DNA from: a virus
Taxonomy: Duplodnaviria; Heunggongvirae; Uroviricota; Caudoviricetes
Strand: one strand, 5' to 3'
IMG/VR virus record: IMGVR_UViG_2609459856_000010
DNA: 9,718 bases
This document shows positions 1 through 9,718 of this stretch, piece by piece (position 1 is the first letter of the stretch; the number at the start of each line of letters is the position of its first letter). Both the position numbers and the translations under genes were made by a program. Under the pieces are notes generated by a model. That model was not told the origin of the DNA and did not search any database. It saw only the letters and a program-made list of their open reading frames with translations.

Positions 1-240
1 CCATTAAAAAATCTTCCAAGTTCAGACGAGATGCTGACTTTAAGTTCCACAACTAATGCCTTGTCCCCGGACAGTATTGATGCCACTAATTCGTTAATTG
101 GTAATGATGATTACAACTGTCTGATTGAAGGAAATAAAAATAACAAACGAACGGCGACGGGGTTGAGTACCAGTATTGTCGGTGCAGCAGAGACACGCCC
201 ACGTAATATTTCATTTAATTACATTGTGAGGGCTGCATGA
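1..240 (+). CDS. Tail fiber protein, C-terminal variable (receptor-binding) part; gene starts upstream of the window
   Basis: Frame 1 is open from base 1 to the TGA at 238-240, so the listed ORF 31..240 is the tail of a longer gene. It sits directly upstream of, and overlaps (ATGA), a tail fiber assembly gene, the usual fiber/chaperone arrangement. AT-rich, as is typical of variable fiber tips. Confidence 0.6.
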   Translation, partial: PLKNLPSSDEMLTLSSTTNALSPDSIDATNSLIGNDDYNCLIEGNKNNKRTATGLSTSIVGAAETRPRNISFNYIVRAA

Positions 241-842
241 TGTATAACGCCATCTTAAATAGTAAATTTATTGCCACAAAGGCAGGAGAGATTACCGTTT
301 ATAACTATGACAGTGAGACACGGGAGTATATTTCTGCATCAACTGAATATCTTGCTGTGGGTGTCGGTATCCCTGCATATTCCTGTTTAGATGCTCCTGG
401 CACACATAAGGCTGGTTATGCAATCTGCCGTTCGGCAGATTTAAACTCATGGGAATATGTGCCAGACCATCGCGGTGAAGTTGTCTATAACACCGAAACG
501 GGAGAATCAAAAGAAATCACAGCTCCGGGTGATTACCCTGAAAATACAACCACTATCGTCCCGTTAACGCCATACGATAAATGGGATGGTGAGAAATGGG
601 TGACGGATACCGAGGCACAGCATAGCACCGCAGTAGAAGCGGCAGAAGCACAGCGCCAGTCGCTGATTGATGCTGCAATGGCTTCCATCAGTCTGATTCA
701 ACTGAAATTACAGGCCGGGCGGAAACTGACTCAGGCAGAAACAACCCGACTTAACGCCGTGCTGGATTACATTGACGCGGTGACGGCAACAGATACCAGC
801 ACCGCGCCGGATGTCATCTGGCCTGAACTGCCGGAGGCGTAG
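237..842 (+). CDS. Tail fiber assembly protein (Tfa / P2 gpG-like chaperone)
   Basis: 201-aa ORF coupled to the fiber gene by an ATGA overlap. The C-terminus carries the motif DTSTAPDVIWPELPE, which recurs in the convergent paralog at 814..1242. Family assignment is from recalled Tfa/gpG similarity. Confidence 0.85.
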   Translation: MMYNAILNSKFIATKAGEITVYNYDSETREYISASTEYLAVGVGIPAYSCLDAPGTHKAGYAICRSADLNSWEYVPDHRGEVVYNTETGESKEITAPGDYPENTTTIVPLTPYDKWDGEKWVTDTEAQHSTAVEAAEAQRQSLIDAAMASISLIQLKLQAGRKLTQAETTRLNAVLDYIDAVTATDTSTAPDVIWPELPEA

Positions 843-1242
843 GCCATTCAATATCGGGTGCTGTTGACGTATCAACACGCATCAGCAGCACACGGTATTT
901 CTTCCATTGGGTGAGAGTTGTAGCTTCTTCATCAGTTGCGATATCAGCATCAACAGCATCCTGACGCCAGGATATTTCACTGTCAGCTTTTTCCCGTAAT
1001 TGGGATTTTTTAACTTCAGCAATAGCTATTAATTCCTTTTTGGTCGGCTGAGGAATATCTATCAGTGCTGGTTTTCCATTCAGTGTTCCAATCTGTTTTC
1101 CTGGTGGAATATCCATAAATAACTTTTTATGTTCTTCCTCACTGACTATTACACCATCATCAGGCCACAGACCTGATGCCTCAAATTTTTCTTTCTCCGA
1201 TATGGGGAAAAAGCCATTTGCTTTAGCGCTCCATACGTACAT
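814..1242 (-). CDS. Tail fiber assembly protein, alternative cassette (Tfa')
   Basis: 142-aa ORF ending VDTSTAPDIEWPTPP, the same C-terminal motif as the + strand Tfa. It is convergent with that gene and immediately downstream of the minus-strand fiber cassette (4-nt spacing). Confidence 0.8.
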   Translation of the reverse strand: MYVWSAKANGFFPISEKEKFEASGLWPDDGVIVSEEEHKKLFMDIPPGKQIGTLNGKPALIDIPQPTKKELIAIAEVKKSQLREKADSEISWRQDAVDADIATDEEATTLTQWKKYRVLLMRVDTSTAPDIEWPTPPAVQAR

Positions 1243-1243
1243 A

Positions 1244-1579
1244 TCAATACCCCACCGCTATAATGTCCACATTAAATCCCCCGGGACCTGCCTGCCAGAT
1301 GCTGGCCCCTGTTAATGATTTTGTTTGATGAACAACCGCCACATTTGCTGGCGATTGTGTTTCAGTTGTTGCAGTACCGATATCATTCCAGTTAATTGAG
1401 ATTGAATAGTTCGTTGTTGTAAACGACCGGGGGAAAGTTATGTGTCTTACATTGGTGCCGACAGGAAATCCAAGATAAACACGCTGAATTATCATTCCTC
1501 CAGGTAACATAACCCAGTTAGCACCTTCTCCAAAACCAACGTTTATGAAAATGCAGAGATAACGGGTAACTGGCATCAT
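1244..1579 (-). CDS. Alternative tail fiber C-terminal cassette (Sv'-like), silent in this orientation; only the part below the crossover site (about 1244..1525) is likely real fiber coding
   Basis: Minus-strand ORF followed directly by Tfa'. The hix-like site at 1526-1551 lies inside the ORF and encodes IFINVGFGE. The ATG at 1579 is probably fortuitous; after inversion this cassette would be fused to the constant part of the fiber gene upstream of the window. Confidence 0.6.
   Translation of the reverse strand: MMPVTRYLCIFINVGFGEGANWVMLPGGMIIQRVYLGFPVGTNVRHITFPRSFTTTNYSISINWNDIGTATTETQSPANVAVVHQTKSLTGASIWQAGPGGFNVDIIAVGY
1526..1551. other. 26-bp hix/gix-like crossover site for the DNA invertase (right boundary of the invertible fiber segment)
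   Basis: TTCTCCAAAACCAACGTTTATGAAAA at 1526-1551. It has the AAAACC-NN-GGTTT-like dyad architecture of hix/gix sites and matches Salmonella hixL, as I recall it (TTCTTGAAAACCAAGGTTTTTGATAA), at about 22 of 26 positions. It lies 55 bp upstream of the invertase start, as gixR does relative to gin in Mu. Confidence 0.65.
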
Positions 1580-1606
1580 CTCCGGTTTTTATTCAGGGGG
1601 ATGCTC

Positions 1607-2206
1607 ATGCTTATTGGCTATGTACGCGTGTCAACAAATGACCAGAACACGGAATTGCAGCGTAACGCGCTGGAGTGCGCAGGATGTGAGCTGATTTTTG
1701 AGGACAAAATCAGCGGCACGAAGTCCGACCGACCGGGACTGAAAAAACTGCTCAGAACATTATCAGCAGGTGACACTCTGGTAGTCTGGAAGCTGGACAG
1801 GCTGGGGCGTAGTATGCGGCATCTGGTCATTCTGGTTGAGGAACTGCGCGAACGCGGCGTTAATTTTCGCAGCCTGACAGATGCTATTGATACCAGCACG
1901 CCGATGGGGCGTTTCTTTTTTCACGTCATGGGGGCTTTAGCAGAAATGGAACGTGAATTAATTGTTGAGAGAACACTGGCCGGACTGGCAGCTGCACGCG
2001 AACAGGGACGCATTGGCGGACGTCGCCCGAAGTTGACAAAAGAACAACACGAGCAAATAGCGAGGCTGATTAAAAACGGTCATGACAGGAAACAACTGGC
2101 GATCATTTACGACATCGGCATATCGACGATTTATCGTTATCACCCTGTAGGCGATATACAGGCTGAAGAAACAACCAGGCAGACTCAGGAAAATGAAAAC
2201 CGCTAA
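1607..2206 (+). CDS. Serine recombinase DNA invertase (Hin/Gin/Cin/Pin family)
   Basis: The N-terminus MLIGYVRVSTNDQNTELQRNAL contains the catalytic-serine motif, followed by VVWKLDRLGRSM, GRFFFHVMGALAEMERELI and a C-terminal HTH (GRRPKLT...ISTIYRY), all typical of this family. Start is placed at the ATG at 1607 because the GGGGG Shine-Dalgarno at 1596-1600 is too close to the ATG at 1601. Confidence 0.9.
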   Translation: MLIGYVRVSTNDQNTELQRNALECAGCELIFEDKISGTKSDRPGLKKLLRTLSAGDTLVVWKLDRLGRSMRHLVILVEELRERGVNFRSLTDAIDTSTPMGRFFFHVMGALAEMERELIVERTLAGLAAAREQGRIGGRRPKLTKEQHEQIARLIKNGHDRKQLAIIYDIGISTIYRYHPVGDIQAEETTRQTQENENR

Positions 2207-2225
2207 TCTGACCATTAGCGGTTTT
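2196..2225. terminator. Bidirectional intrinsic-terminator-like hairpin between the convergent invertase and U genes
   Basis: Perfect 12-bp inverted repeat AAAACCGCTAAT (2196-2207) / ATTAGCGGTTTT (2214-2225) with a 6-nt loop. It has an A-tract on one side and a T-tract on the other, so it forms a U-tailed hairpin on either strand. It overlaps the invertase stop codon (2204-2206). Confidence 0.45.
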
Positions 2226-2232
2226 GCGTTAA

Positions 2233-2721
2233 TCAAAACAGCCCTTTAACGGAGCTGGCCGCGCTGTTAAGGGATGATGTGACCTTATCTTTGAAGCCGG
2301 ACAGCATATCACTGAACGATGAGGATTGCAGGCGCTCCCGCAAATCCTCATCACAGCGTTCAAGAGTCAGTGAAAACTCTATCTTTTTCGCCTTGCCGTA
2401 GCGATCAAACTCGGAGCGGGTCGTACTTGTGTCAGTCAGAACATACATGCCGTAAATCTGCCCGACGCCATCAATCAGAGGCCAGGGGCGTCCTGTATAC
2501 GCCTGCGTGGTCAGCAGCGAAAGCGACACTTCGCCACCTGTAATTTCAGGATAAAGCACGCCAGAAAGCACGATGCGATCATCACCTGCACCGATATACT
2601 GCCAGCTTGCTGAGCGGTTAACGCGTTCATTTTTCACATGCCGCCAGCTTTTGTTTTGCTGTAACTGCTGATGCGGCAATGTGCGCAGCTCAAAAACAAA
2701 CATGCCGTAGATCATCATCAT
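2233..2721 (-). CDS. U: Phage tail protein U (P2 gpU-like)
   Basis: The ORF starts MMMIYGMFVFEL and contains GGEVSLSLL, a P2 gpU-like pattern from memory. It lies directly downstream of the tape measure gene. Start is chosen at the ATG at 2721 (GAGGAG at 2730-2735, about 8 nt spacing); the ORF is open to 2727. Confidence 0.8.
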   Translation of the reverse strand: MMMIYGMFVFELRTLPHQQLQQNKSWRHVKNERVNRSASWQYIGAGDDRIVLSGVLYPEITGGEVSLSLLTTQAYTGRPWPLIDGVGQIYGMYVLTDTSTTRSEFDRYGKAKKIEFSLTLERCDEDLRERLQSSSFSDMLSGFKDKVTSSLNSAASSVKGLF

Positions 2722-2733
2722 GGCCATGACTCC

Positions 2734-5541
2734 TCAATCTTTATCGTAAAAACTGCCACGTCCGGCACGAGCACGCCGTTCCACCTCTGCCCTGACCATT
2801 TCACCGACCAGTTTCGCCAGTTCGCGGGGATTCTGCGTAACAACGTTATGCAGATGAACATGAATTTCACCACCAAATCCGGAGGCAACAGGCTCCCGGT
2901 TACGGGAAGTTACAGGAACTGATGCCACAGGAGATCGTATGGCCTCCGCCACCGGGCGGGAGCTGGCCGCAACAACAGGGACCAGCGCCGGAGGCAGCGG
3001 AGCCGGGACCACGGGGGTGATATTAATTGCGGGGGCAGGCTTACTGACCTGCGCAATCTTCCGCTCCTGCCACTCCCCACGAACAGCAAGTGCGCGGGGC
3101 AGGTTTTTAAAGACAATATCGCCGGGGCCAATGCGTTTTTTCGTCTCCTCAACCAGCTTACCTGTGTTATCAGCAATTTTGCTGAGTCTGCGCAGCGTAC
3201 CGGTATTGCTGTCTGTGAGCGGTTTGTTGTCTTTGGGGTTATCACCTCCGGTGCCATTGCCATTTTCTACAGGCTTCGGCGGATTGATTTTCGCCAGGTC
3301 CCCCTGAAGAAAGGCAACCTTGTCCTGAAGAATGGCCGCACGCTGTGCGTCTTCGATTTTCTTTCTCGCCCTTTCCGCTTCATCCGGAAGAACACCTAGT
3401 TTTTCAAGTATCCACGCCAGCGTATCCAGCAACATTTTTGCAGGTGTCAGAACAAGCTGTAACGCGCCACCAAGAACGTTACCGAATATCTCGCCAGCAC
3501 TGGTACATTTATCCAGCGTTTCCTTGCTGGACTCCATCGGTGACAGCAGCGATTTAAACCAGTTAAACACCTGGCTGATCCCGATTCCGATTGCGTCAAA
3601 AACAGGACCAAACCGTTCAAAGGTTTCGCGCAACGGGGTCAGCATTTCCATAATCCCGCTGAACACCCCGGCAAAAAATGCCCTGATGGGATCCCAGTAT
3701 TTCCAGATGAGAATGGCAGCTCCGGCAAGCGCAGCCACGATAAGACCAACCGGACTGAACAGCGCCCCGATAGCGCCTCCCAGCAAAGAAACAGAACCCG
3801 TCACCATTCCCCACAACGCAGGCAACACCCTGATGACATTCATTGACCGGGTAAGAATGTCAAAACCAAGACGCAGGGTGGCCAGCTTCCCGTAAAGCAC
3901 CCCAATAACCAGCGACAACGAGCCAATCGTTGCAGTCATTGCCAGCAACGCACCGCCTGCTATCAGTAGCTGGCGCGTCAGTACCGGATGGGCCTGCGCC
4001 AGCGAGGTGATTTTTTCAAGCACCCGCGTGAGCCACTGCGTGACAGAACGCAGCGGACCGTCAACCAGATCACTGATGCGAATACGAAGACCTTCCCATG
4101 CGCTGTCGAGATTTTTCAGGTCCCCATCAAGATTATCGGCCATTACTTTTGCAACGCGATCGGCCTCTCCCCTTGCCCCCTGCAATTCTCTGGTCAGTTT
4201 TTGCAGCTCTCCTGAACCAGCCGCCGCAACAAGCGTCTGCAAACCAACGAACGCCTCTTCTCCGGCGATGTCCTTGAAGAAGGAGACCTGGTCCACCTGT
4301 CCGTATTTTTGTGTCGCCTTATAGAGATCAAGCAGCACATCCTCCATCGGGCGCATTTTGCCTCTGGCGTCAGCAACTGACACCCCCAGCTCTTTCAGTG
4401 CATCAGCCGCAGCTTTTGGCGGTGATGCAAGGCGGGACAGACTTGCGCGCATGGCCGTGCCAGCATCGCTTCCGCGAAGACCATTATTGGCAAGCATCCC
4501 GGCCATGGCCGCCGCTTCTTCAAGACTGATACCAAGTTTTGCGGCAACCGGACCGGTATACTTCATGGTTTCGCCCAGCGCGCGTAAATCAGTATTGGTC
4601 CGGGTGAATGCCGCTGTCAGCGTATCGCCAACCCGGTCCATTTGATCGGCTGTCAGGTTGAACTGTGTGAGGATATTGGAGCCTATATCCGCCGTCTCGC
4701 CGAGTTCGACGCCACCTGCCAGCGCCATATTAAGAACACCGGGCAATGCGGCCTGAATGGCCTGCGGAGTAAAACCAGCCATTGCCAGAAAGCTCTGCCC
4801 ACTGGCGGCATCACTCGCAGTAAACTGTGTTTCAGAGCCAAGTTTTAACGCCTGCTCACGCAGCGCCTTAAACTGCGGGCTGTTTTTGTCGATTCGCGTC
4901 AGTGCCTGAACGCGGGACATCTCTTTGCCGAACCCGATCGCAGGCTGCAAAAAACGCCCGGCAGCATAGCCGCCCGCCGCTGCCGCACCAATTGCCAGCG
5001 CACCACCTGTTTTCAGTTTTCCCGCTGTTTCCTGCGCGCGCGAATACCGCTCACGCGCCCGCGTTACACGCGCAAGCGCCTGCCGTTCGCGTTCAAGCTG
5101 GTTGTTGTACTGTTCGGTGCGTCTGATGGCCTGCTGGATGGTGTTATCGCTACCTGTCAGGGAAATGCCGTGGCGTTTCAGCTCTCCGCCAAGTTCCCGC
5201 ATTTTCTGAATTTCCCGTGTGCGCGATTCATTCAGGCGTTCAAGCCGGGTGCTTAACTGCTGCATCAGCTTTTGTTGTTTTTCGCTGAGCACTGTACCCG
5301 TGCGTTGTAACTGATTAAGGGCGTTAAGCTGGCGTCGTGCTTTCACGATGCCCGCATCCGCTTTACTGACAGCGTCACGGGCGCGCTCAAATGAACGCGC
5401 CTGACGCTCGAGATTTTTGATCGCCCCCTGCGTTCGCTGGATGGAGTCACCAAACTGCCCCATCAGGCGGCGGGCGTTTTCGGCAGGCCGGGTCAGCCTG
5501 TCAACGGCGCTGAAAGCGACCCGGATATCAAGAGTCTTCAT
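2734..5541 (-). CDS. T: Tail tape measure protein (P2 gpT-like)
   Basis: About 935 aa. Charged, coiled-coil-like N-terminal region rich in R/Q/E, Gly/Ala-rich hydrophobic central segments, and a Pro/Val-rich C-terminal region. It sits between E/E' and U. Start is uncertain: GTG 5577, ATG 5550 or ATG 5541, the last having a GGGAA motif upstream. Confidence 0.9.
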   Translation of the reverse strand: MKTLDIRVAFSAVDRLTRPAENARRLMGQFGDSIQRTQGAIKNLERQARSFERARDAVSKADAGIVKARRQLNALNQLQRTGTVLSEKQQKLMQQLSTRLERLNESRTREIQKMRELGGELKRHGISLTGSDNTIQQAIRRTEQYNNQLERERQALARVTRARERYSRAQETAGKLKTGGALAIGAAAAGGYAAGRFLQPAIGFGKEMSRVQALTRIDKNSPQFKALREQALKLGSETQFTASDAASGQSFLAMAGFTPQAIQAALPGVLNMALAGGVELGETADIGSNILTQFNLTADQMDRVGDTLTAAFTRTNTDLRALGETMKYTGPVAAKLGISLEEAAAMAGMLANNGLRGSDAGTAMRASLSRLASPPKAAADALKELGVSVADARGKMRPMEDVLLDLYKATQKYGQVDQVSFFKDIAGEEAFVGLQTLVAAAGSGELQKLTRELQGARGEADRVAKVMADNLDGDLKNLDSAWEGLRIRISDLVDGPLRSVTQWLTRVLEKITSLAQAHPVLTRQLLIAGGALLAMTATIGSLSLVIGVLYGKLATLRLGFDILTRSMNVIRVLPALWGMVTGSVSLLGGAIGALFSPVGLIVAALAGAAILIWKYWDPIRAFFAGVFSGIMEMLTPLRETFERFGPVFDAIGIGISQVFNWFKSLLSPMESSKETLDKCTSAGEIFGNVLGGALQLVLTPAKMLLDTLAWILEKLGVLPDEAERARKKIEDAQRAAILQDKVAFLQGDLAKINPPKPVENGNGTGGDNPKDNKPLTDSNTGTLRRLSKIADNTGKLVEETKKRIGPGDIVFKNLPRALAVRGEWQERKIAQVSKPAPAINITPVVPAPLPPALVPVVAASSRPVAEAIRSPVASVPVTSRNREPVASGFGGEIHVHLHNVVTQNPRELAKLVGEMVRAEVERRARAGRGSFYDKD

Positions 5542-5794
5542 TGTCTGCATTCCCGCTGCGAAGTGCCGCCCGCTCACGCCAACTAACCACTTCGCCGGGC
5601 GTCATCATGAAGATTTCGGCGGGCGACCAGTTAAAAATGGCGGCGATATCTGCCACCAGATCTTCGATGTGCTCAAAGCACACCAAGGTGATTACGCTGC
5701 CGTCTCCTGCACGCTCTTCGCGCCAGAGTCTGGCTCGCTCATAAAATTTACAGCCACAGCGCACAACTGAATAAAATCGCGTGACGACATTTTT
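5528..5794 (-). CDS. E' extension: -1 frame segment producing the gpE+E' tail assembly chaperone fusion by programmed frameshift
   Basis: The -1 frame relative to E opens exactly inside the A7 run (the -1 frame TAA is at 5797-5795) and stays open to 5528, overlapping the start of T. This matches the E/E'/T arrangement of P2 as I recall it. Confidence 0.6.
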   Translation of the reverse strand, partial: KNVVTRFYSVVRCGCKFYERARLWREERAGDGSVITLVCFEHIEDLVADIAAIFNWSPAEIFMMTPGEVVSWRERAALRSGNADNEDS

Positions 5795-6066
5795 TTAATC
5801 ATCACTTCATCCAGTCGTGGCGAGGTCACGCGAGGCAACAGCGTGAACATGGTATCCGCTTTCAGATTCAGCACATCAGACAGCGACAGACCACGCAGGG
5901 ATCCAGCCTGTTCAATAGCCCCGGTGATCTCCACATACGTGATTTTTTCGCCACCACGCTCAATTGGTCGAGTCAGTTTTACGCCACGTTCGACAGCCAT
6001 ATCCTCACCTGCCGTCACATCATCCGCCACGGTGTTATTCCGGGTTTCAGTATCGATGTCTTTCAT
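5692..6066 (-). CDS. E: Tail assembly chaperone gpE (P2 E-like)
   Basis: 124-aa ORF between the tube and tape measure genes, with Shine-Dalgarno AAAGGAG upstream of the ATG at 6066. It contains the slippery run at codons 90-92 (I-K-K). Confidence 0.8.
   Translation of the reverse strand: MKDIDTETRNNTVADDVTAGEDMAVERGVKLTRPIERGGEKITYVEITGAIEQAGSLRGLSLSDVLNLKADTMFTLLPRVTSPRLDEVMIKKMSSRDFIQLCAVAVNFMSEPDSGAKSVQETAA
5790..5796 (-). promoter_or_regulatory. Candidate -1 ribosomal frameshift slippery run (A7 in mRNA sense) for E to E'
   Basis: The mRNA reads AUU AAA AAA AUG in the E frame. The overlapping -1 ORF becomes open at this run. Homopolymeric A runs are known slippery sequences. Confidence 0.5.
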
Positions 6067-6121
6067 CAGTTTTCTCCTTTTCAGTCAGAGGCGACGCACT
6101 GCGCCGCCTGCATATTACTTA

Positions 6122-6634
6122 TCAGCCAAGCCCGAGCGCGGAACGGATACGGTCAGGCACAATGTCCTTGCCGTCCTTCCGGTAAATGAAGTTCAGCAGG
6201 TCAATCTCCCACAACGGGCGATCGTTAACACTCAGCTTGTAGTAGGTGTTTTTAATGGCGTAAGTGTGTGATGTGGCTTCGCCCTGTTTGGCTTCCCCCA
6301 TATCAATTTCCGTCACACGTCCGCGCATTTCGACTTCATACAGGTCGCTTTCTGCATCGGTGTAGTATTCACCCGCAAAACGCAGCAGCGTGCCGTCAAT
6401 CGTGCCGCCATACTTAAGGAACAGCTCACGAACTGCGCCCCCCATGACAAAGCTCGCATCAAGCGCGGAGTCGTCCAGACCGAGATCAATACTTACCGCA
6501 CCCATCATGCCACCACCCCGGTAGCTGTCGGTTTTGCGCGTCAGCTTAGGTAGAGTGACGGACGTCACCTTACCCACTTCGTTTTCACCATCCACAAACA
6601 GCGTAAAAAAGCGAAGATGTTTTGGCACAGCCAT
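6122..6634 (-). CDS. FII: Tail tube protein (P2 FII-like)
   Basis: 170-aa ORF immediately downstream of the sheath gene, start overlapping the sheath stop. Size and position fit P2 FII. Confidence 0.9.
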   Translation of the reverse strand: MAVPKHLRFFTLFVDGENEVGKVTSVTLPKLTRKTDSYRGGGMMGAVSIDLGLDDSALDASFVMGGAVRELFLKYGGTIDGTLLRFAGEYYTDAESDLYEVEMRGRVTEIDMGEAKQGEATSHTYAIKNTYYKLSVNDRPLWEIDLLNFIYRKDGKDIVPDRIRSALGLG

Positions 6635-7818
6635 CAGGCACCTCCCAGCACCGCAAATGCGGGTTCAAAGTATTCATCAGTAAACGTCTGGTAAAGCTCC
6701 ATGTCTTCCAGCGGGGGAACAGGCGTATATTTGTAGCGAATACGCACACGCCCCTGACGTAAATCCGTGGTGCTGTTATCCACCACGTCATACCAGCACT
6801 CCGCGCCAATCAGTTTCCCGGCAGTAACCAGTGAATCCAGTTTTGCCCTGATGGCACTGATAACATCCTTCACGTTCGCAGGCGTCAGTGGACTGTCGAT
6901 GGTTTCAAACTGCGCTTCCGCAATTGAATCAGCCAGCACCTGTGCGGTTCGGGTATACACCTCAAAGATGTAGGCGTTCGTTTCCGGGGTGCGGTTGCCC
7001 CAGAAGCGGAACCCGTTGCGACGAATAATGGTCGTGATTTCTTTGTTGTTGAGGCTGTTGGCATCACTGTCTTCGGCCTGCAACGACCAGAACACATGCC
7101 TGGACATCCCCAGCACATTTTTAACCGGAACGTTGGACAGCGATTTGTGCCAGCCCTGCTCATGGTCAATGTACGCACGAAGGCCGCACGCATAGGCAGG
7201 CGCGGGGAACGTTTCGTTTTTGCCACTTTTCGGGTTGTAGGCGATGAAGTCCGGCCATAAGAGCATCACCTCACGTTCGTTGAATTTCTGGCGGTAGGTA
7301 ATCGCCTCAGCCATCGTGTTACAGCCGTGACATGAGGCATACACAAACGCGCGCAGTTTACCCGCAATCACGCACAGGGATTTTGTTACCGCCTCCGTGT
7401 CCAGCTCCGGCGCGGCCAGAATACGCGGACGGTATCCGATGCTTTCATCCTGCTCTGCAACAAGCAGCGCATACATCCCCGTATAGCTGCCGTCAGATTC
7501 AGAACCACCGATAACCAGTTGATCCTGCGTTTTTCCGTCTTCTTCTTTGTGTTCAGCCACGCGAACGACGATCACCTTTGTGCTCACCTGGTCTGCGATG
7601 GCCTTAAGCGCACGATAAAGCGTCCCCGTTGTTCCGCATTTTCCCAGCACGTCATTGACGCGGGTCAGCAGTGTGGGCTTGTTCAGCGGGAACAGCTCCG
7701 CATCCGCATCATCCGCCGTTGCCACGATACCGATAACACTGGAATCAACATCATTAATCGCTGTTACCAGGTCGGTACTTTCCGTAACACGGGCACCATG
7801 AAAACGAGTTTCACTCAT
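6634..7818 (-). CDS. FI: Contractile tail sheath protein (P2 FI-like)
   Basis: 394-aa ORF starting MSETRFHGARVTE, first gene of the minus-strand block, with Shine-Dalgarno AAGGGG about 8 nt upstream of the ATG at 7818-7816. Size and sequence are sheath-like. Confidence 0.9.
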   Translation of the reverse strand: MSETRFHGARVTESTDLVTAINDVDSSVIGIVATADDADAELFPLNKPTLLTRVNDVLGKCGTTGTLYRALKAIADQVSTKVIVVRVAEHKEEDGKTQDQLVIGGSESDGSYTGMYALLVAEQDESIGYRPRILAAPELDTEAVTKSLCVIAGKLRAFVYASCHGCNTMAEAITYRQKFNEREVMLLWPDFIAYNPKSGKNETFPAPAYACGLRAYIDHEQGWHKSLSNVPVKNVLGMSRHVFWSLQAEDSDANSLNNKEITTIIRRNGFRFWGNRTPETNAYIFEVYTRTAQVLADSIAEAQFETIDSPLTPANVKDVISAIRAKLDSLVTAGKLIGAECWYDVVDNSTTDLRQGRVRIRYKYTPVPPLEDMELYQTFTDEYFEPAFAVLGGA

Positions 7819-7974
7819 AGCTTCAGCCCCTTGTATCCGTTAAATGATTCGGCAACAATCATCACCCACCACGCGCGTAATCTCCCCCCTGCGCCGTTCT
7901 CCCGCCACGGCGACAACAAAAAGCAGTAACCCCCTCCGCACGCACATGCGACCATGCTGCACAGGGAGGGAAAG

Positions 7975-9084
7975 ATGACCGACACCACCATGCAATTGCT
8001 CAGTCAGGGCACAGACCCCGTGAAAATGCCGGATTTTGATATTCTCGTGGAGGGGGAAACGCTGTCCGGCGTGGCAGAGCGCCTGATGAGCCTGTCACTG
8101 ACCGACAACCGGGGATTTGAAGCGGACCAGCTCACCATCACGCTGGATGATGCGGATGGTCAGTTGCAGCTACCGCCACGGGGCGCGCGCCTGACGGTTC
8201 TCATTGGCTGGAAAGGAGAACCGCTGACAGAAAAAGGCACTTACATTGTTGATGAAATTGCTCATGAAGGACCGCCCGACAGACTGACCATTTCAGCCAG
8301 AAGCGCAGATTTTCGGGATGAATTTAACGTCAAGCGCGAAGTATCCTGGCATGATGTGACCGTTGAACGCGTGGTGTCTGCAATTGCTCACCGATACGGC
8401 CTGAAACCGCAAATCAGCGAAATGCTGATGGATATTGAAATCGACCACGCCGACCAGACCGAAGAAAGCGACATGTCCTTCCTTACGCGCATGGCGGAAA
8501 TGCTGGGCGCAATCACCACGGTAAAAAGCGGCAATCTGTTATTCATCATGCCAGGTGGTGGCGTGAACGCACAGGGCCAGCCGTTGCCCTCGTTCGCCAT
8601 TACACGCAGCAGCGGCGATCGCCATCAGTTCCGTATTGCTGACCGCGAGGCGTATACGGGGGTACGCGCCTACTGGCTTGATCTTAATTACGGGAAAAAG
8701 AAAAAAGTCAGCGTAAAACGCCGTAAACCGCCAAAACCCAAAAAGGAGAAAAGCAGCAGCCGTGAAGGTGATTATATGGAAGGCGCGGAAGGCAATGTGT
8801 TTGTGTTACGCAAGACTTATCAGAACGAGCAGGCAGCAAGACGCGCAGCGGCGGCAAAGTGGCAGCAGCTACAACGCGGAGCCGCAGCGTTCTCCATCAC
8901 ACTGGCACGTGGACGCGCAGAACTCTACCCCGAAATGCATGGCACGGTAACAGGATTTAAAAGCGAGATTGATAATCAGGACTGGATTATTGCAAAAGCC
9001 GAGCACACCATTGATAACAGCGGCTTTACCACGCAGCTTGAGCTTGAGGCAAAAATCCCGGAATGGATAGCAGAAACAGACTGA
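7975..9084 (+). CDS. D: Phage late control / tail protein D (P2 gpD-like)
   Basis: 369 aa from the ATG at 7975, preceded by GGGAGGG; the ORF is open from 7954. Central lysine-rich stretch (KKKKVSVKRRKPPKPKKEK) and overall gpD-like sequence. Followed by ogr, as in P2. Confidence 0.85.
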   Translation: MTDTTMQLLSQGTDPVKMPDFDILVEGETLSGVAERLMSLSLTDNRGFEADQLTITLDDADGQLQLPPRGARLTVLIGWKGEPLTEKGTYIVDEIAHEGPPDRLTISARSADFRDEFNVKREVSWHDVTVERVVSAIAHRYGLKPQISEMLMDIEIDHADQTEESDMSFLTRMAEMLGAITTVKSGNLLFIMPGGGVNAQGQPLPSFAITRSSGDRHQFRIADREAYTGVRAYWLDLNYGKKKKVSVKRRKPPKPKKEKSSSREGDYMEGAEGNVFVLRKTYQNEQAARRAAAAKWQQLQRGAAAFSITLARGRAELYPEMHGTVTGFKSEIDNQDWIIAKAEHTIDNSGFTTQLELEAKIPEWIAETD

Positions 9085-9126
9085 GCAACTTAGAATAGCG
9101 GCAGCACCACGTTAAGGGAGGTCGCT

Positions 9127-9387
9127 ATGTTCCGTTGTCCGCTTTGTGGCGCATCTGCCCGTATCCGCACCAGTCGTCCGGAAAATGATTCAAACACCGT
9201 GCGGCAAAAGTATTACCAGTGTAACAACCTGGAATGCGGCGTATGCTTCTCAACACTGGAAGCTTTCCATAAATTCACATCGAAACACGCCTCCGGCGTT
9301 CACTCATCAGAAGGTATCCCGTGGCATGAGCTGCCAGCTTCACACAGGGGAAACAATCAGATGAGTTTGCCTTTATCTCAGAATTAA
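9127..9387 (+). CDS. ogr: Ogr/Delta-family zinc-finger late transcription activator
   Basis: 86 aa starting MFRCPLCGASARIRTSR, with Cys-X2-Cys ... Cys-X4-Cys (CPLC ... CNNLEC), characteristic of P2 Ogr. Shine-Dalgarno GGGAGG is 5 nt upstream. Confidence 0.85.
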   Translation: MFRCPLCGASARIRTSRPENDSNTVRQKYYQCNNLECGVCFSTLEAFHKFTSKHASGVHSSEGIPWHELPASHRGNNQMSLPLSQN

Positions 9388-9577: not shown

Positions 9578-9718
9578 ATGTCGCAAAAATCGCTTACGGC
9601 CATCACGTTCTGCGTGACGGCAATCCTCATCATCTGGATGCTGCACGGTTCGCTGTGCGAAATACGGATGAGCTTCTGGGGAGCGGAGTTTGCGGCGTTC
9701 TTACAGTGTAAGCAGTAA
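9578..9718 (+). CDS. Hok/Gef-family type I toxin (small membrane peptide), 46 aa
   Basis: ATG at 9578 with AAGGAG 8 nt upstream; the stop is at 9716-9718. Not in the supplied ORF track because it is short. Translation: MSQKSLTAITFCVTAILIIWMLHGSLCEIRMSFWGAEFAAFLQCKQ. It has an N-terminal transmembrane helix followed by SLCEIR-x6-E-x-AAF, which aligns with the conserved SLCEIRYRDGHREVAAF core of Hok as I recall it. Confidence 0.6.
   Translation: MSQKSLTAITFCVTAILIIWMLHGSLCEIRMSFWGAEFAAFLQCKQ

What the first reader, a model, noticed from the sequence alone, without database searches (positions are those of the whole stretch)
2196..7974. Tail operon FI-FII-E-E'-T-U is inverted relative to the fiber genes and D-ogr
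In P2 and the relatives I can recall, the fiber genes, FI FII E T U D and ogr all run on one strand, with D as the last gene of the FI operon. Here the fiber/Tfa genes, the invertase, D and ogr are on the plus strand, but the contiguous FI to U block (7818 down to 2233) is on the minus strand. U therefore converges on the invertase across a bidirectional hairpin, and FI diverges from D across a 156-bp spacer (7819-7974). Flipping the 2.2-7.9 kb block would restore the canonical order exactly. This may be a natural inversion, a lineage-specific architecture, or an assembly error. If real, D is uncoupled from the FI operon and needs its own promoter. I saw no inverted repeats or hix-like sites at the two junctions that would explain invertase-mediated inversion.
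Basis: partly seen in the sequence, partly recalled or inferred. Interest (0 to 1): 0.6.

Follow-up and report, generated by a model that had tools for sequence, protein, structure and literature searches.

The report
Normal gene order of P88-like prophages
The "flipped" tail-gene block is real, but it is the fixed, inherited gene order of a large branch of P2-like phages found in about a quarter of E. coli genomes, so it is ordinary rather than an error or a genetic switch.

Summary
U-T-E'-E-FII-FI (2233-7818) lies on the minus strand between the invertase and D-ogr on the plus strand. A two-way terminator hairpin sits at 2196-2225, and a 156-bp spacer separates FI from D.

It is not an anomaly. 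The same layout occurs in functional phages P88 and PhiSM and in five ICTV genera of Peduoviridae. It also occurs in 61 of 80 surveyed Enterobacterales prophage loci and in 1,358 of 5,426 complete E. coli genomes. No E. coli genome has the flipped version (0 of 1,414). FI and D trees both split cleanly into inverted and canonical groups. More distant P2-like phages are canonical, so this was one ancient inversion.

The invertase plays no part. Most clade members lack it, and its only hix-like site (1526-1551) belongs to the fibre-tip cassette.

The spacer holds one conserved Ogr-type dyad (7898-7915). A -10-like hexamer starts exactly 43.5 nt from the dyad centre on both sides (57/58 and 52/58 distinct spacers). 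This is the geometry of P2's shared pP/pO divergent late promoters.

Low interest; the layout is already in public annotated genomes.

The parts
1..240 (+). 3' end of the tail fibre gene (variable receptor-binding tip; the ORF runs off the window start)
   Evidence: ORF 31-240; Pfam S_tail_recep_bd, weak; P88 and 500465-2 annotations
237..842 (+). tail fibre assembly protein (Tfa)
   Evidence: Pfam Caudo_TAP 9e-32
814..1242 (-). alternative Tfa of the invertible fibre cassette
   Evidence: Pfam Caudo_TAP 7e-33
1244..1579 (-). alternative fibre tip of the invertible cassette
   Evidence: Pfam Gp53-like_C
1526..1551 (.). only good hix/gix-like recombination site in the window (TTCTCCAAAACCAACGTTTATGAAAA); it borders the fibre cassette, not the tail block
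   Evidence: 19 of 24 matches to the hix consensus; the next best site has 15
1601..2206 (+). Hin/Gin/Cin-type serine DNA invertase
   Evidence: Pfam Resolvase 2e-51 + HTH_7
2196..2225 (.). two-way intrinsic terminator hairpin shared by the invertase and the FI-U operon
2233..2727 (-). gpU tail protein, last gene of the FI operon here
   Evidence: Pfam Phage_P2_GpU 3e-39
2734..5577 (-). gpT tape measure protein
   Evidence: Pfam PhageMin_Tail 9e-57
5528..5764 (-). E' frame: frameshift extension of the tail chaperone E+E'
   Evidence: Pfam Phage_P2_GpE 2e-12; annotated as a separate 156-nt tail protein CDS in P88
5692..6066 (-). gpE tail assembly chaperone
   Evidence: Pfam Phage_TAC_7, weak and below the curated cut-off; supported by position and the P88 annotation
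6122..6634 (-). gpFII tail tube
   Evidence: Pfam Phage_tube 8e-47
6634..7818 (-). gpFI tail sheath, first gene of the leftward operon
   Evidence: Pfam Phage_sheath_1, Gp18_domIII_N and Phage_sheath_1C
7858..7863 (-). predicted -10 of pF (GATGAT on the minus strand); predicted start site near 7851
   Evidence: A2/T6 hexamer at exactly this offset from the dyad in 57 of 58 distinct clade spacers; same geometry as P2 pF and pO
7898..7915 (.). Ogr-type activator dyad TCT-N12-ACA (FI sense: GTTGT CGCCGTGGCGGG AGA), centre 7906.5, proposed to be shared by pF and pD
   Evidence: conserved in 59 of 62 distinct spacers, many with a perfect TGT-N12-ACA; the only two-sided site in the window; resembles the annotated P2 activator sites
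7937..7950 (+). conserved GC-rich alternating block just upstream of the predicted D -10; function unknown
   Evidence: P2 pP has CGCGGGGCGCG at the equivalent place
7950..7955 (+). predicted -10 of a D promoter (GACCAT); predicted start site near 7962
   Evidence: A2/T6 hexamer at exactly this offset in 52 of 58 spacers, against at most 8 of 58 at any other offset on the D side; equals the position of P2 pP's TAGCCT
7975..9084 (+). gpD (late control D / baseplate hub)
   Evidence: Pfam Phage_GPD; the start equals the P88 annotation
9092..9097 (+). -10-like TAGAAT in the D-ogr spacer; candidate separate ogr promoter
   Evidence: read directly from the sequence; the P2 record annotates an ogr promoter in the same interval
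9127..9387 (+). Ogr/Delta zinc-finger late-gene activator
   Evidence: Pfam Ogr_Delta 5e-14

Best explanation
The window is a typical prophage of the P88-like branch of Peduoviridae (Xuanwuvirus, Gemsvirus, Senquatrovirus, Novemvirus, Reipivirus and many unclassified Enterobacterales prophages). One ancient inversion in the ancestor of this branch turned the FI-FII-E-E'-T-U block around. Its breakpoints lay just upstream of the pF activator site and at the U/D boundary. The orientation is now fixed. It is not switched by the neighbouring invertase, which serves only the fibre-tip cassette.

Shown: the layout, its distribution, its fixation and the clade structure.

Inferred: late expression runs from a single Ogr-binding dyad at 7898-7915 in the FI-D spacer, which serves two back-to-back late promoters. 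pF fires leftward (-10 GATGAT, start near 7851) and transcribes FI to U, ending at the two-way terminator at 2196-2225. A promoter for D fires rightward (-10 GACCAT, start near 7962) and transcribes D, probably reading on into ogr. This arrangement matches how P2's single activator site serves the divergent pP and pO promoters.
For: Layout and gene identities.

Colinear single-piece matches across both junctions at 92-94% identity to P88, P884B11, PhiSM and 520873; 500465-2 matches at 94% in three pieces. Their annotations show the same strands. The same layout is found at 55-76% FI identity in SEN4, phiT5282H and ST16-OXA48phi5.4, which have no invertase.

The junction search finds colinear FI-D matches in E. 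coli, Citrobacter, Enterobacter, Serratia and Klebsiella phages. In the genome survey, 61 loci are inverted, 18 canonical and 1 disrupted, and only 8 of the 61 have an invertase. 1,358 of 5,426 complete E. coli genomes hold the intact FI-D junction at 95% identity or better. None of 1,414 holds the hypothetical flipped U-D junction.

NJ trees of FI and of D each give a clean inverted|canonical bipartition, 65 against 15. The outgroups RSY1 and phiX216 are canonical.

P88 and PhiSM are viable phages (PMC5285337, PMC6456863).

Promoter model: the dyad is conserved in 59 of 62 spacers. The GTTGT half-site lies 92-99 nt from the FI ATG, against 93 in P2 pF. A2/T6 hexamers start 43.5 nt from the dyad centre on both sides (57/58 and 52/58; other offsets reach at most 10/58). 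The P2 record annotates one activator site for pO and pP, with start sites at centre +/-55.5, and P2's -10 hexamers TAGCCT and GAAACT sit at +/-43.5. The dyad is the only two-sided site in the window, in the P88 locus and in the whole phiT5282H genome, against 0.095 expected per shuffled genome.
Against: No transcript or binding data were available, so both promoters are predictions.

The window's dyad has one mismatch (TCT rather than TGT), and an exact TGT-N12-ACA search finds nothing in the spacer.

The D-side -10 is weak (GACCAT, 3 of 6 to consensus). The predicted leader is only about 13 nt.

The sequences compared are related by descent, so part of the positional conservation may reflect shared ancestry rather than selection. 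However, the hexamer sequence varies while positions 2 and 6 stay fixed.

An in-situ inversion cannot be formally distinguished from replacement of the module in the opposite orientation.
Confidence: 0.85

Rival explanations
1. Assembly error: the 5.6-kb block was misoriented when the contig was built.
For: None found.
Against: The same junctions are present in 1,358 complete E. coli genomes, in independently sequenced phage isolates and in 61 loci from about 30 genera. No genome has the alternative junction.
Confidence: 0.01
2. The block is a second invertible segment flipped by the adjacent Hin/Gin-type invertase, giving phase-variable tail gene orientation.
For: The invertase gene abuts the block at the U end.
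Against: No hix-like sites or inverted repeats lie at the junctions. The only hix-like site is at 1526-1551, on the fibre cassette. 53 of 61 clade loci lack an invertase near U yet have the same orientation. 0 of 1,414 E. coli genomes show the other orientation.
Confidence: 0.01
3. The block was not inverted in place. Instead, an ancestor replaced its FI-U module with a homologous module from another contractile-tail element, inserted in the opposite orientation.
For: Phage genomes are mosaic. FI of this clade is only 46-49% identical to P2-type FI. The N-terminus of D and the C-terminus of U do not align with P2.
Against: D, which lies outside the block, shows the same divergence from P2-type D (48-53%). 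It also gives the same clean bipartition as FI, as expected if block and flank diverged together. The pF activator geometry is retained relative to FI. The rest of the late region is P2-ordered.
Confidence: 0.1
4. D is not expressed from a late promoter that shares the dyad. It is expressed from some other signal, such as a constitutive or early promoter, or antisense read-through. The D-side conservation would then reflect another function, such as an RNA structure or a binding site at the GC-rich block.
For: The D-side -10 is weak. A conserved GC-rich palindromic block lies beside it. The sigma-70 scan finds no promoter in the spacer.
Against: The A2/T6 hexamer is fixed at 43.5 nt from the dyad centre in 52 of 58 spacers while its sequence varies. 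The geometry equals that of mapped P2 pP, which also has a GC-rich block and a weak TAGCCT -10. Activator-dependent late promoters are expected to fail a sigma-70 consensus scan.
Confidence: 0.25

Closest known systems
Escherichia phage P88 (Xuanwuvirus), Escherichia phage 500465-2 (Gemsvirus), Citrobacter phage PhiSM
   Same: 92-94% nucleotide identity, colinear from the invertase through ogr. Same genes, same strands, same 157-bp FI-D spacer with an identical dyad, and the same hok-like gene after ogr.
   Different: The fibre-tip and Tfa cassette differs, as is usual for these phages. 500465-2 carries an extra gene between D and ogr.
Bacteriophage P2 FETUD operon (also 186, PSP3, SopEPhi/Fels-2)
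   Same: Same gene set (FI, FII, E, E+E', T, U, D, ogr) and the same order within the block. The activator dyad sits at a similar distance upstream of FI, and ogr lies downstream of D.
   Different: In P2 all of these genes lie on one strand, D is the last gene of the pF operon and overlaps U. Here FI-U is inverted, D is separated from the operon, and D sits back to back with FI. Protein identity is only 46-53%.
P2 pP/pO divergent late promoters with one shared activator-binding site
   Same: One dyad lies midway in a spacer of about 160-170 bp between two divergent late operons. The -10 hexamers start 43.5 nt from the centre on each side, with start sites at +/-55.5. A GC-rich block lies upstream of the weaker -10.
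   Different: It controls FI-U and D rather than P-Q and O-S. Its function here is predicted, not mapped.
Hin/Gin/Cin/Pin invertible segments (Mu G segment, P1 C segment, e14 P segment)
   Same: The window contains such a system: an invertase, a hix-like site and paired alternative fibre tips and Tfa genes at 1-2206.
   Different: That system covers only the fibre cassette. The 5.6-kb tail block has no recombination sites and exists in only one orientation.

Membership tests
P2-like (Peduoviridae) tail and late-control module | Homologues of FI, FII, E/E', T, U, D and an Ogr/Delta zinc-finger activator | tested here: met
   Pfam hits for all of them. E is weak (below the curated cut-off), but E' scores 2e-12.
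P2-like (Peduoviridae) tail and late-control module | Canonical P2 arrangement: FI-FII-E-E'-T-U-D-ogr on one strand as one pF operon | tested here: not met
   FI-U is on the minus strand and D-ogr on the plus strand. P2 and SopEPhi are canonical. This feature defines the P2-type layout, not family membership; ICTV places phages with the inverted layout in Peduoviridae.
P2-like (Peduoviridae) tail and late-control module | Ogr-type dyad (TGT-N12-ACA) about 55 nt upstream of late start sites | tested here: inconclusive
   A dyad with one mismatch lies at 7898-7915, conserved across the clade and with correctly placed -10 hexamers. No start sites or binding data are available.
P88-like sublineage with inverted FI-U block (Xuanwuvirus, Gemsvirus, Senquatrovirus, Novemvirus, Reipivirus) | FI adjacent to and divergent from D; U converging on the fibre/Tfa/invertase region | tested here: met
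P88-like sublineage with inverted FI-U block (Xuanwuvirus, Gemsvirus, Senquatrovirus, Novemvirus, Reipivirus) | FI and D group with the inverted clade in phylogenies | tested here: met
   Clean bipartition in both NJ trees, with the window on the inverted side. 98-99% protein identity to P88 and 500465-2.
Din-family (Hin/Gin/Cin) invertible DNA segment, as applied to the 2.2-7.9 kb block | A pair of inverted hix/gix-like 26-bp sites flanking the segment | tested here: not met
   No repeat above chance links the junctions. The only hix-like site is at 1526-1551.
Din-family (Hin/Gin/Cin) invertible DNA segment, as applied to the 2.2-7.9 kb block | Both orientations occur among closely related genomes | tested here: not met
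   1,358 genomes hold the FI-D junction; 0 of 1,414 hold the flipped junction.
P2 pP/pO-type bidirectional late promoter with a shared activator site | A single dyad centred between divergent late operons, with -10 elements symmetric about it | tested here: met
   Hexamers at +/-43.5 nt in 57/58 and 52/58 spacers. P2 pP/pO has identical geometry.
P2 pP/pO-type bidirectional late promoter with a shared activator site | Ogr-dependent transcription initiating in both directions | not testable with these tools
   Needs 5'-end mapping or reporter assays.

The most novel reading that the evidence does not exclude
The FI-D spacer of this lineage is a second pP/pO-type bidirectional late promoter: one symmetric Ogr-binding dyad drives both the FI-U operon and D(-ogr). 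I found no description of this in the searchable literature. On this reading, the symmetry of the activator site is what allowed an ancestral 5.6-kb inversion of an essential operon to be viable, because the dyad carried along with FI could at once serve the stranded D gene.
Probability: 0.6. Interest if true: 0.3.

Novelty: already known. Interest (0 to 1): 0.15.

Why it matters
It matters mainly as a correction. Annotators and scanners that use P2 as the template should not flag this layout as a rearrangement or misassembly, because it is the standard order for a very common group of enterobacterial prophages.

There is also a modest biological point. The comparison suggests how an essential operon can be inverted without loss of regulation. 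The activator site is a dyad, so after the flip it can serve promoters on both sides, as P2 already does at pP/pO. That gives a clean, testable example of promoter co-option after an inversion.

Tried and rejected
- An exact TGT-N12-ACA search found nothing in the spacer. The site has one mismatch (TCT) and was found only by aligning relatives.
- The sigma-70 consensus scan found no promoter in the spacer. This is expected for activator-dependent late promoters and says little.
- I first took CATGCT (7952-7957) as the D -10. I rejected it because P88 has CATGCC there, whereas GACCAT at 7950-7955 is the positionally conserved hexamer.
- A strict composite scan failed to recover P2's own late promoters, because their dyads end in CCA. 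I replaced it with a direct check of P2's annotated sites.
- P2 pF's -10 fits best one nucleotide further out (44.5), as do both hexamers in phiT5282H's P-O spacer. The +/-43.5 rule therefore has about 1 nt of play.
- Inverted and direct repeat searches between the two junctions gave only chance-level matches.
- Rfam found nothing at gathering thresholds.
- I searched the papers on P88, SEN4/SEN5, PhiSM, P2-like phylogeny, Burkholderia P2-like phages and the 2026 P2-like diversity survey for 'inver', 'orientation', 'rearrang' and 'gene order'. None discusses this block. Subscription-only literature, such as the original Christie and Calendar promoter papers and Pelludat 2003, was not searchable.
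Full report
**1. Observation**

On the plus strand:
- a fibre tip (to 240) and Tfa (237-842)
- a Resolvase/HTH_7 invertase (1601-2206)
- gpD (7975-9084)
- Ogr (9127-9387)

On the minus strand:
- gpU (2233-2727)
- tape measure T (2734-5577)
- the GpE' frame (5528-5764) and E (5692-6066)
- tube FII (6122-6634)
- sheath FI (6634-7818)

The window also has a second Tfa (814-1242) and an alternative fibre tip (1244-1579) on the minus strand. These are the other half of an invertible fibre cassette.

The invertase and U converge on a 12-bp-stem hairpin at 2196-2225. It folds on both strands (-16.9 and -15.7 kcal/mol; z -4.3 and -3.0) and has a U-run on each side.

FI and D diverge across 7819-7974. 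D's start at 7975 has a strong Shine-Dalgarno sequence and equals the annotated P88 start.

**2. Is it unusual? No.**

Phage database matches:
- A megablast of the window against phage records gives single-piece, colinear matches from the invertase through ogr at 92-94% identity to P88, Xuanwuvirus P884B11 and Citrobacter phage PhiSM. 500465-2 (94%) and 520873 (93%) match in three pieces.
- The annotations of P88 and 500465-2 show exactly the same strands.
- The same layout appears at 55-76% FI identity in Salmonella phage SEN4 (Senquatrovirus), Enterobacter phage phiT5282H (Novemvirus) and Klebsiella phage ST16-OXA48phi5.4 (Reipivirus). None of these has an invertase.
- A distant DNA search with the FI-D junction finds colinear matches in E. 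coli, Citrobacter, Enterobacter, Serratia and Klebsiella phages.

Genome surveys:
- A scan of one genome per bacterial species with a D-protein alignment returned 80 loci. Of these, 61 have FI divergent from D at 140-320 nt, 18 have the P2 layout with U directly upstream of D, and 1 is disrupted.
- The 61 come from about 30 genera of Enterobacterales, and only 8 have an invertase next to U.
- In complete E. coli genomes the intact FI-D junction occurs at 95% identity or better in 1,358 of 5,426 genomes.
- A synthetic "flipped" junction, made of the window's U 3' end joined to its D 5' end, is contiguous in none of the 1,414 genomes that contain either half.

P88 is inducible and lytic on new hosts. 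PhiSM is spontaneously released, forms plaques and lysogenises (PMC5285337, PMC6456863). The layout therefore belongs to working phages.

**3. Origin**

FI identity is 55-99% within the inverted group and below 49% to P2-type phages. D behaves the same way. Neighbour-joining trees of FI (inside the block) and of D (outside it) each contain a branch that separates all 65 inverted loci from all 15 canonical loci. More distant P2-like phages of Ralstonia (RSY1) and Burkholderia (phiX216) are canonical.

The simplest reading is a single ancient inversion in the ancestor of this branch, followed by vertical co-divergence. Replacement of the module in the opposite orientation cannot be formally excluded. 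It is less likely, because flank and block diverge together and pF keeps its geometry relative to FI.

No repeat links the two junctions above chance. The only hix-like site in the window (1526-1551; 19 of 24 to consensus) borders the fibre cassette. The invertase is therefore irrelevant to the block.

**4. How it most likely works**

An exact TGT-N12-ACA search finds nothing in the spacer. Aligning the spacers of relatives does reveal one conserved dyad, T(C/G)T-N12-ACAACAA. It lies at 7898-7915 in the window, and SEN4 and many other clade members have it as a perfect TGT-N12-ACA. It is present in 59 of 62 distinct spacers.

FI side:
- In FI sense the GTTGT half-site lies 92-99 nt from the FI start codon, against 93 nt in P2 pF.
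- A -10-like hexamer follows 54 nt after the half-site in every member examined.

Both sides, across 58 distinct regions centred on the dyad:
- A hexamer with A at position 2 and T at position 6 starts exactly 43.5 nt from the dyad centre on the FI side in 57 regions.
- The same is true on the D side in 52 regions.
- No other offset exceeds 10 of 58.
- The hexamer sequence varies (GATTAT, GAATAT, GATGAT on the FI side; AATCAT, AACTAT, GATCCT, GACCAT, GACGAT on the D side) while those two positions stay fixed. This is the signature of a -10 element.

Comparison with P2:
- The P2 GenBank record annotates one activator-binding site for the divergent pP and pO promoters, with start sites at 3016 and 3127.
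- That dyad is centred at 3071.5, so both start sites lie at +/-55.5. P2's hexamers at +/-43.5 are TAGCCT and GAAACT, both with A2 and T6.
- The window's spacer has the same geometry. The predicted start sites are about 7851 on the minus strand for FI-U and about 7962 on the plus strand for D.

Specificity:
- The dyad is the only two-sided site in the window, in the P88 locus and in the whole phiT5282H genome, against 0.095 expected per shuffled genome.
- phiT5282H's own P-O spacer carries a near-identical dyad.

All of this is comparative inference. No transcript or binding data were available.

ogr probably also keeps a promoter of its own. A TAGAAT hexamer at 9092-9097 sits in the 42-nt D-ogr spacer, matching the interval where P2's ogr promoter is annotated.

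**5. Comparison with known systems**

The window is a member of the P88-like branch of Peduoviridae. It works like P2 except that the FETUD operon is split into FETU and D, arranged back to back.

It fails the "single-strand FETUD operon" feature of the P2-type layout. It also fails both defining features of an invertase-flipped segment, namely flanking sites and two orientations. It meets the sequence-level features of a pP/pO-type shared-site bidirectional late promoter. The functional feature of that promoter type could not be tested here.

**6. Novelty and verdict**

The arrangement is already present and annotated in RefSeq/ICTV phage genomes and in about a quarter of complete E. coli genomes, so the finding as stated is already known and ordinary. 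I found no paper in the searchable library that comments on the inversion or on a shared FI/D activator site. The promoter inference may therefore be a small new point.

Interest is 0.15. The most novel reading still open is that dyad symmetry allowed the inversion and created a second bidirectional late promoter. I give that a probability of about 0.6 and an interest of about 0.3 if true.

Noticed in passing
window 1-2206 (hix-like site 1526-1551): A classic invertible fibre-tip cassette: two convergent Tfa genes, an alternative fibre tip on the minus strand and the invertase. The only good hix-like site (TTCTCCAAAACCAACGTTTATGAAAA) lies inside the alternative tip ORF. Its partner must lie left of the window start.
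   Followed up: partly
window 7937-7950: A GC-rich alternating block (CGCACGCACATGCG here; CGCGCGCGC in most relatives) is conserved across the clade immediately upstream of the predicted D -10. P2 pP has CGCGGGGCGCG at the equivalent position, and phiT5282H has a similar block on the P side of its P-O spacer. Its function is unknown.
   Followed up: partly
window 9085-9126: The 42-nt D-ogr spacer has a good -10-like TAGAAT (9092-9097) ahead of a GGGAGG Shine-Dalgarno sequence. It is a candidate separate promoter for ogr, as annotated between D and ogr in P2.
   Followed up: no
window 9579-9718: A 46-aa Hok/Gef-type toxin ORF (MSQKSLTAITFCVTAILIIWMLHGSLCEIRMSFWGAEFAAFLQCKQ) lies downstream of ogr. 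It is annotated as MokW-like/hok in P88 and 500465-2. No Rfam family (for example a Sok-type antisense RNA) reached its gathering score.
   Followed up: partly
L010 (NZ_JBQPOM010000071.1, 'Vagococcus sp. WN89Y'): A 226-kb contig labelled as a Gram-positive Vagococcus carries a prophage 97-98% identical at protein level to this enterobacterial one. This is most likely contamination or a mislabelled assembly.
   Followed up: no
L002 16589-17922 (phage 500465-2): Phage 500465-2 has an extra 1-kb gene on the opposite strand between D and ogr, where the window has only 42 nt. The D-ogr interval seems to be a cargo insertion spot in this lineage.
   Followed up: no
L046 (Klebsiella sp. WOUb02): This is the one clade locus with a disrupted junction. 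FI is truncated and lies 846 nt from D, probably through an insertion or deletion. The orientation is still the inverted one.
   Followed up: no
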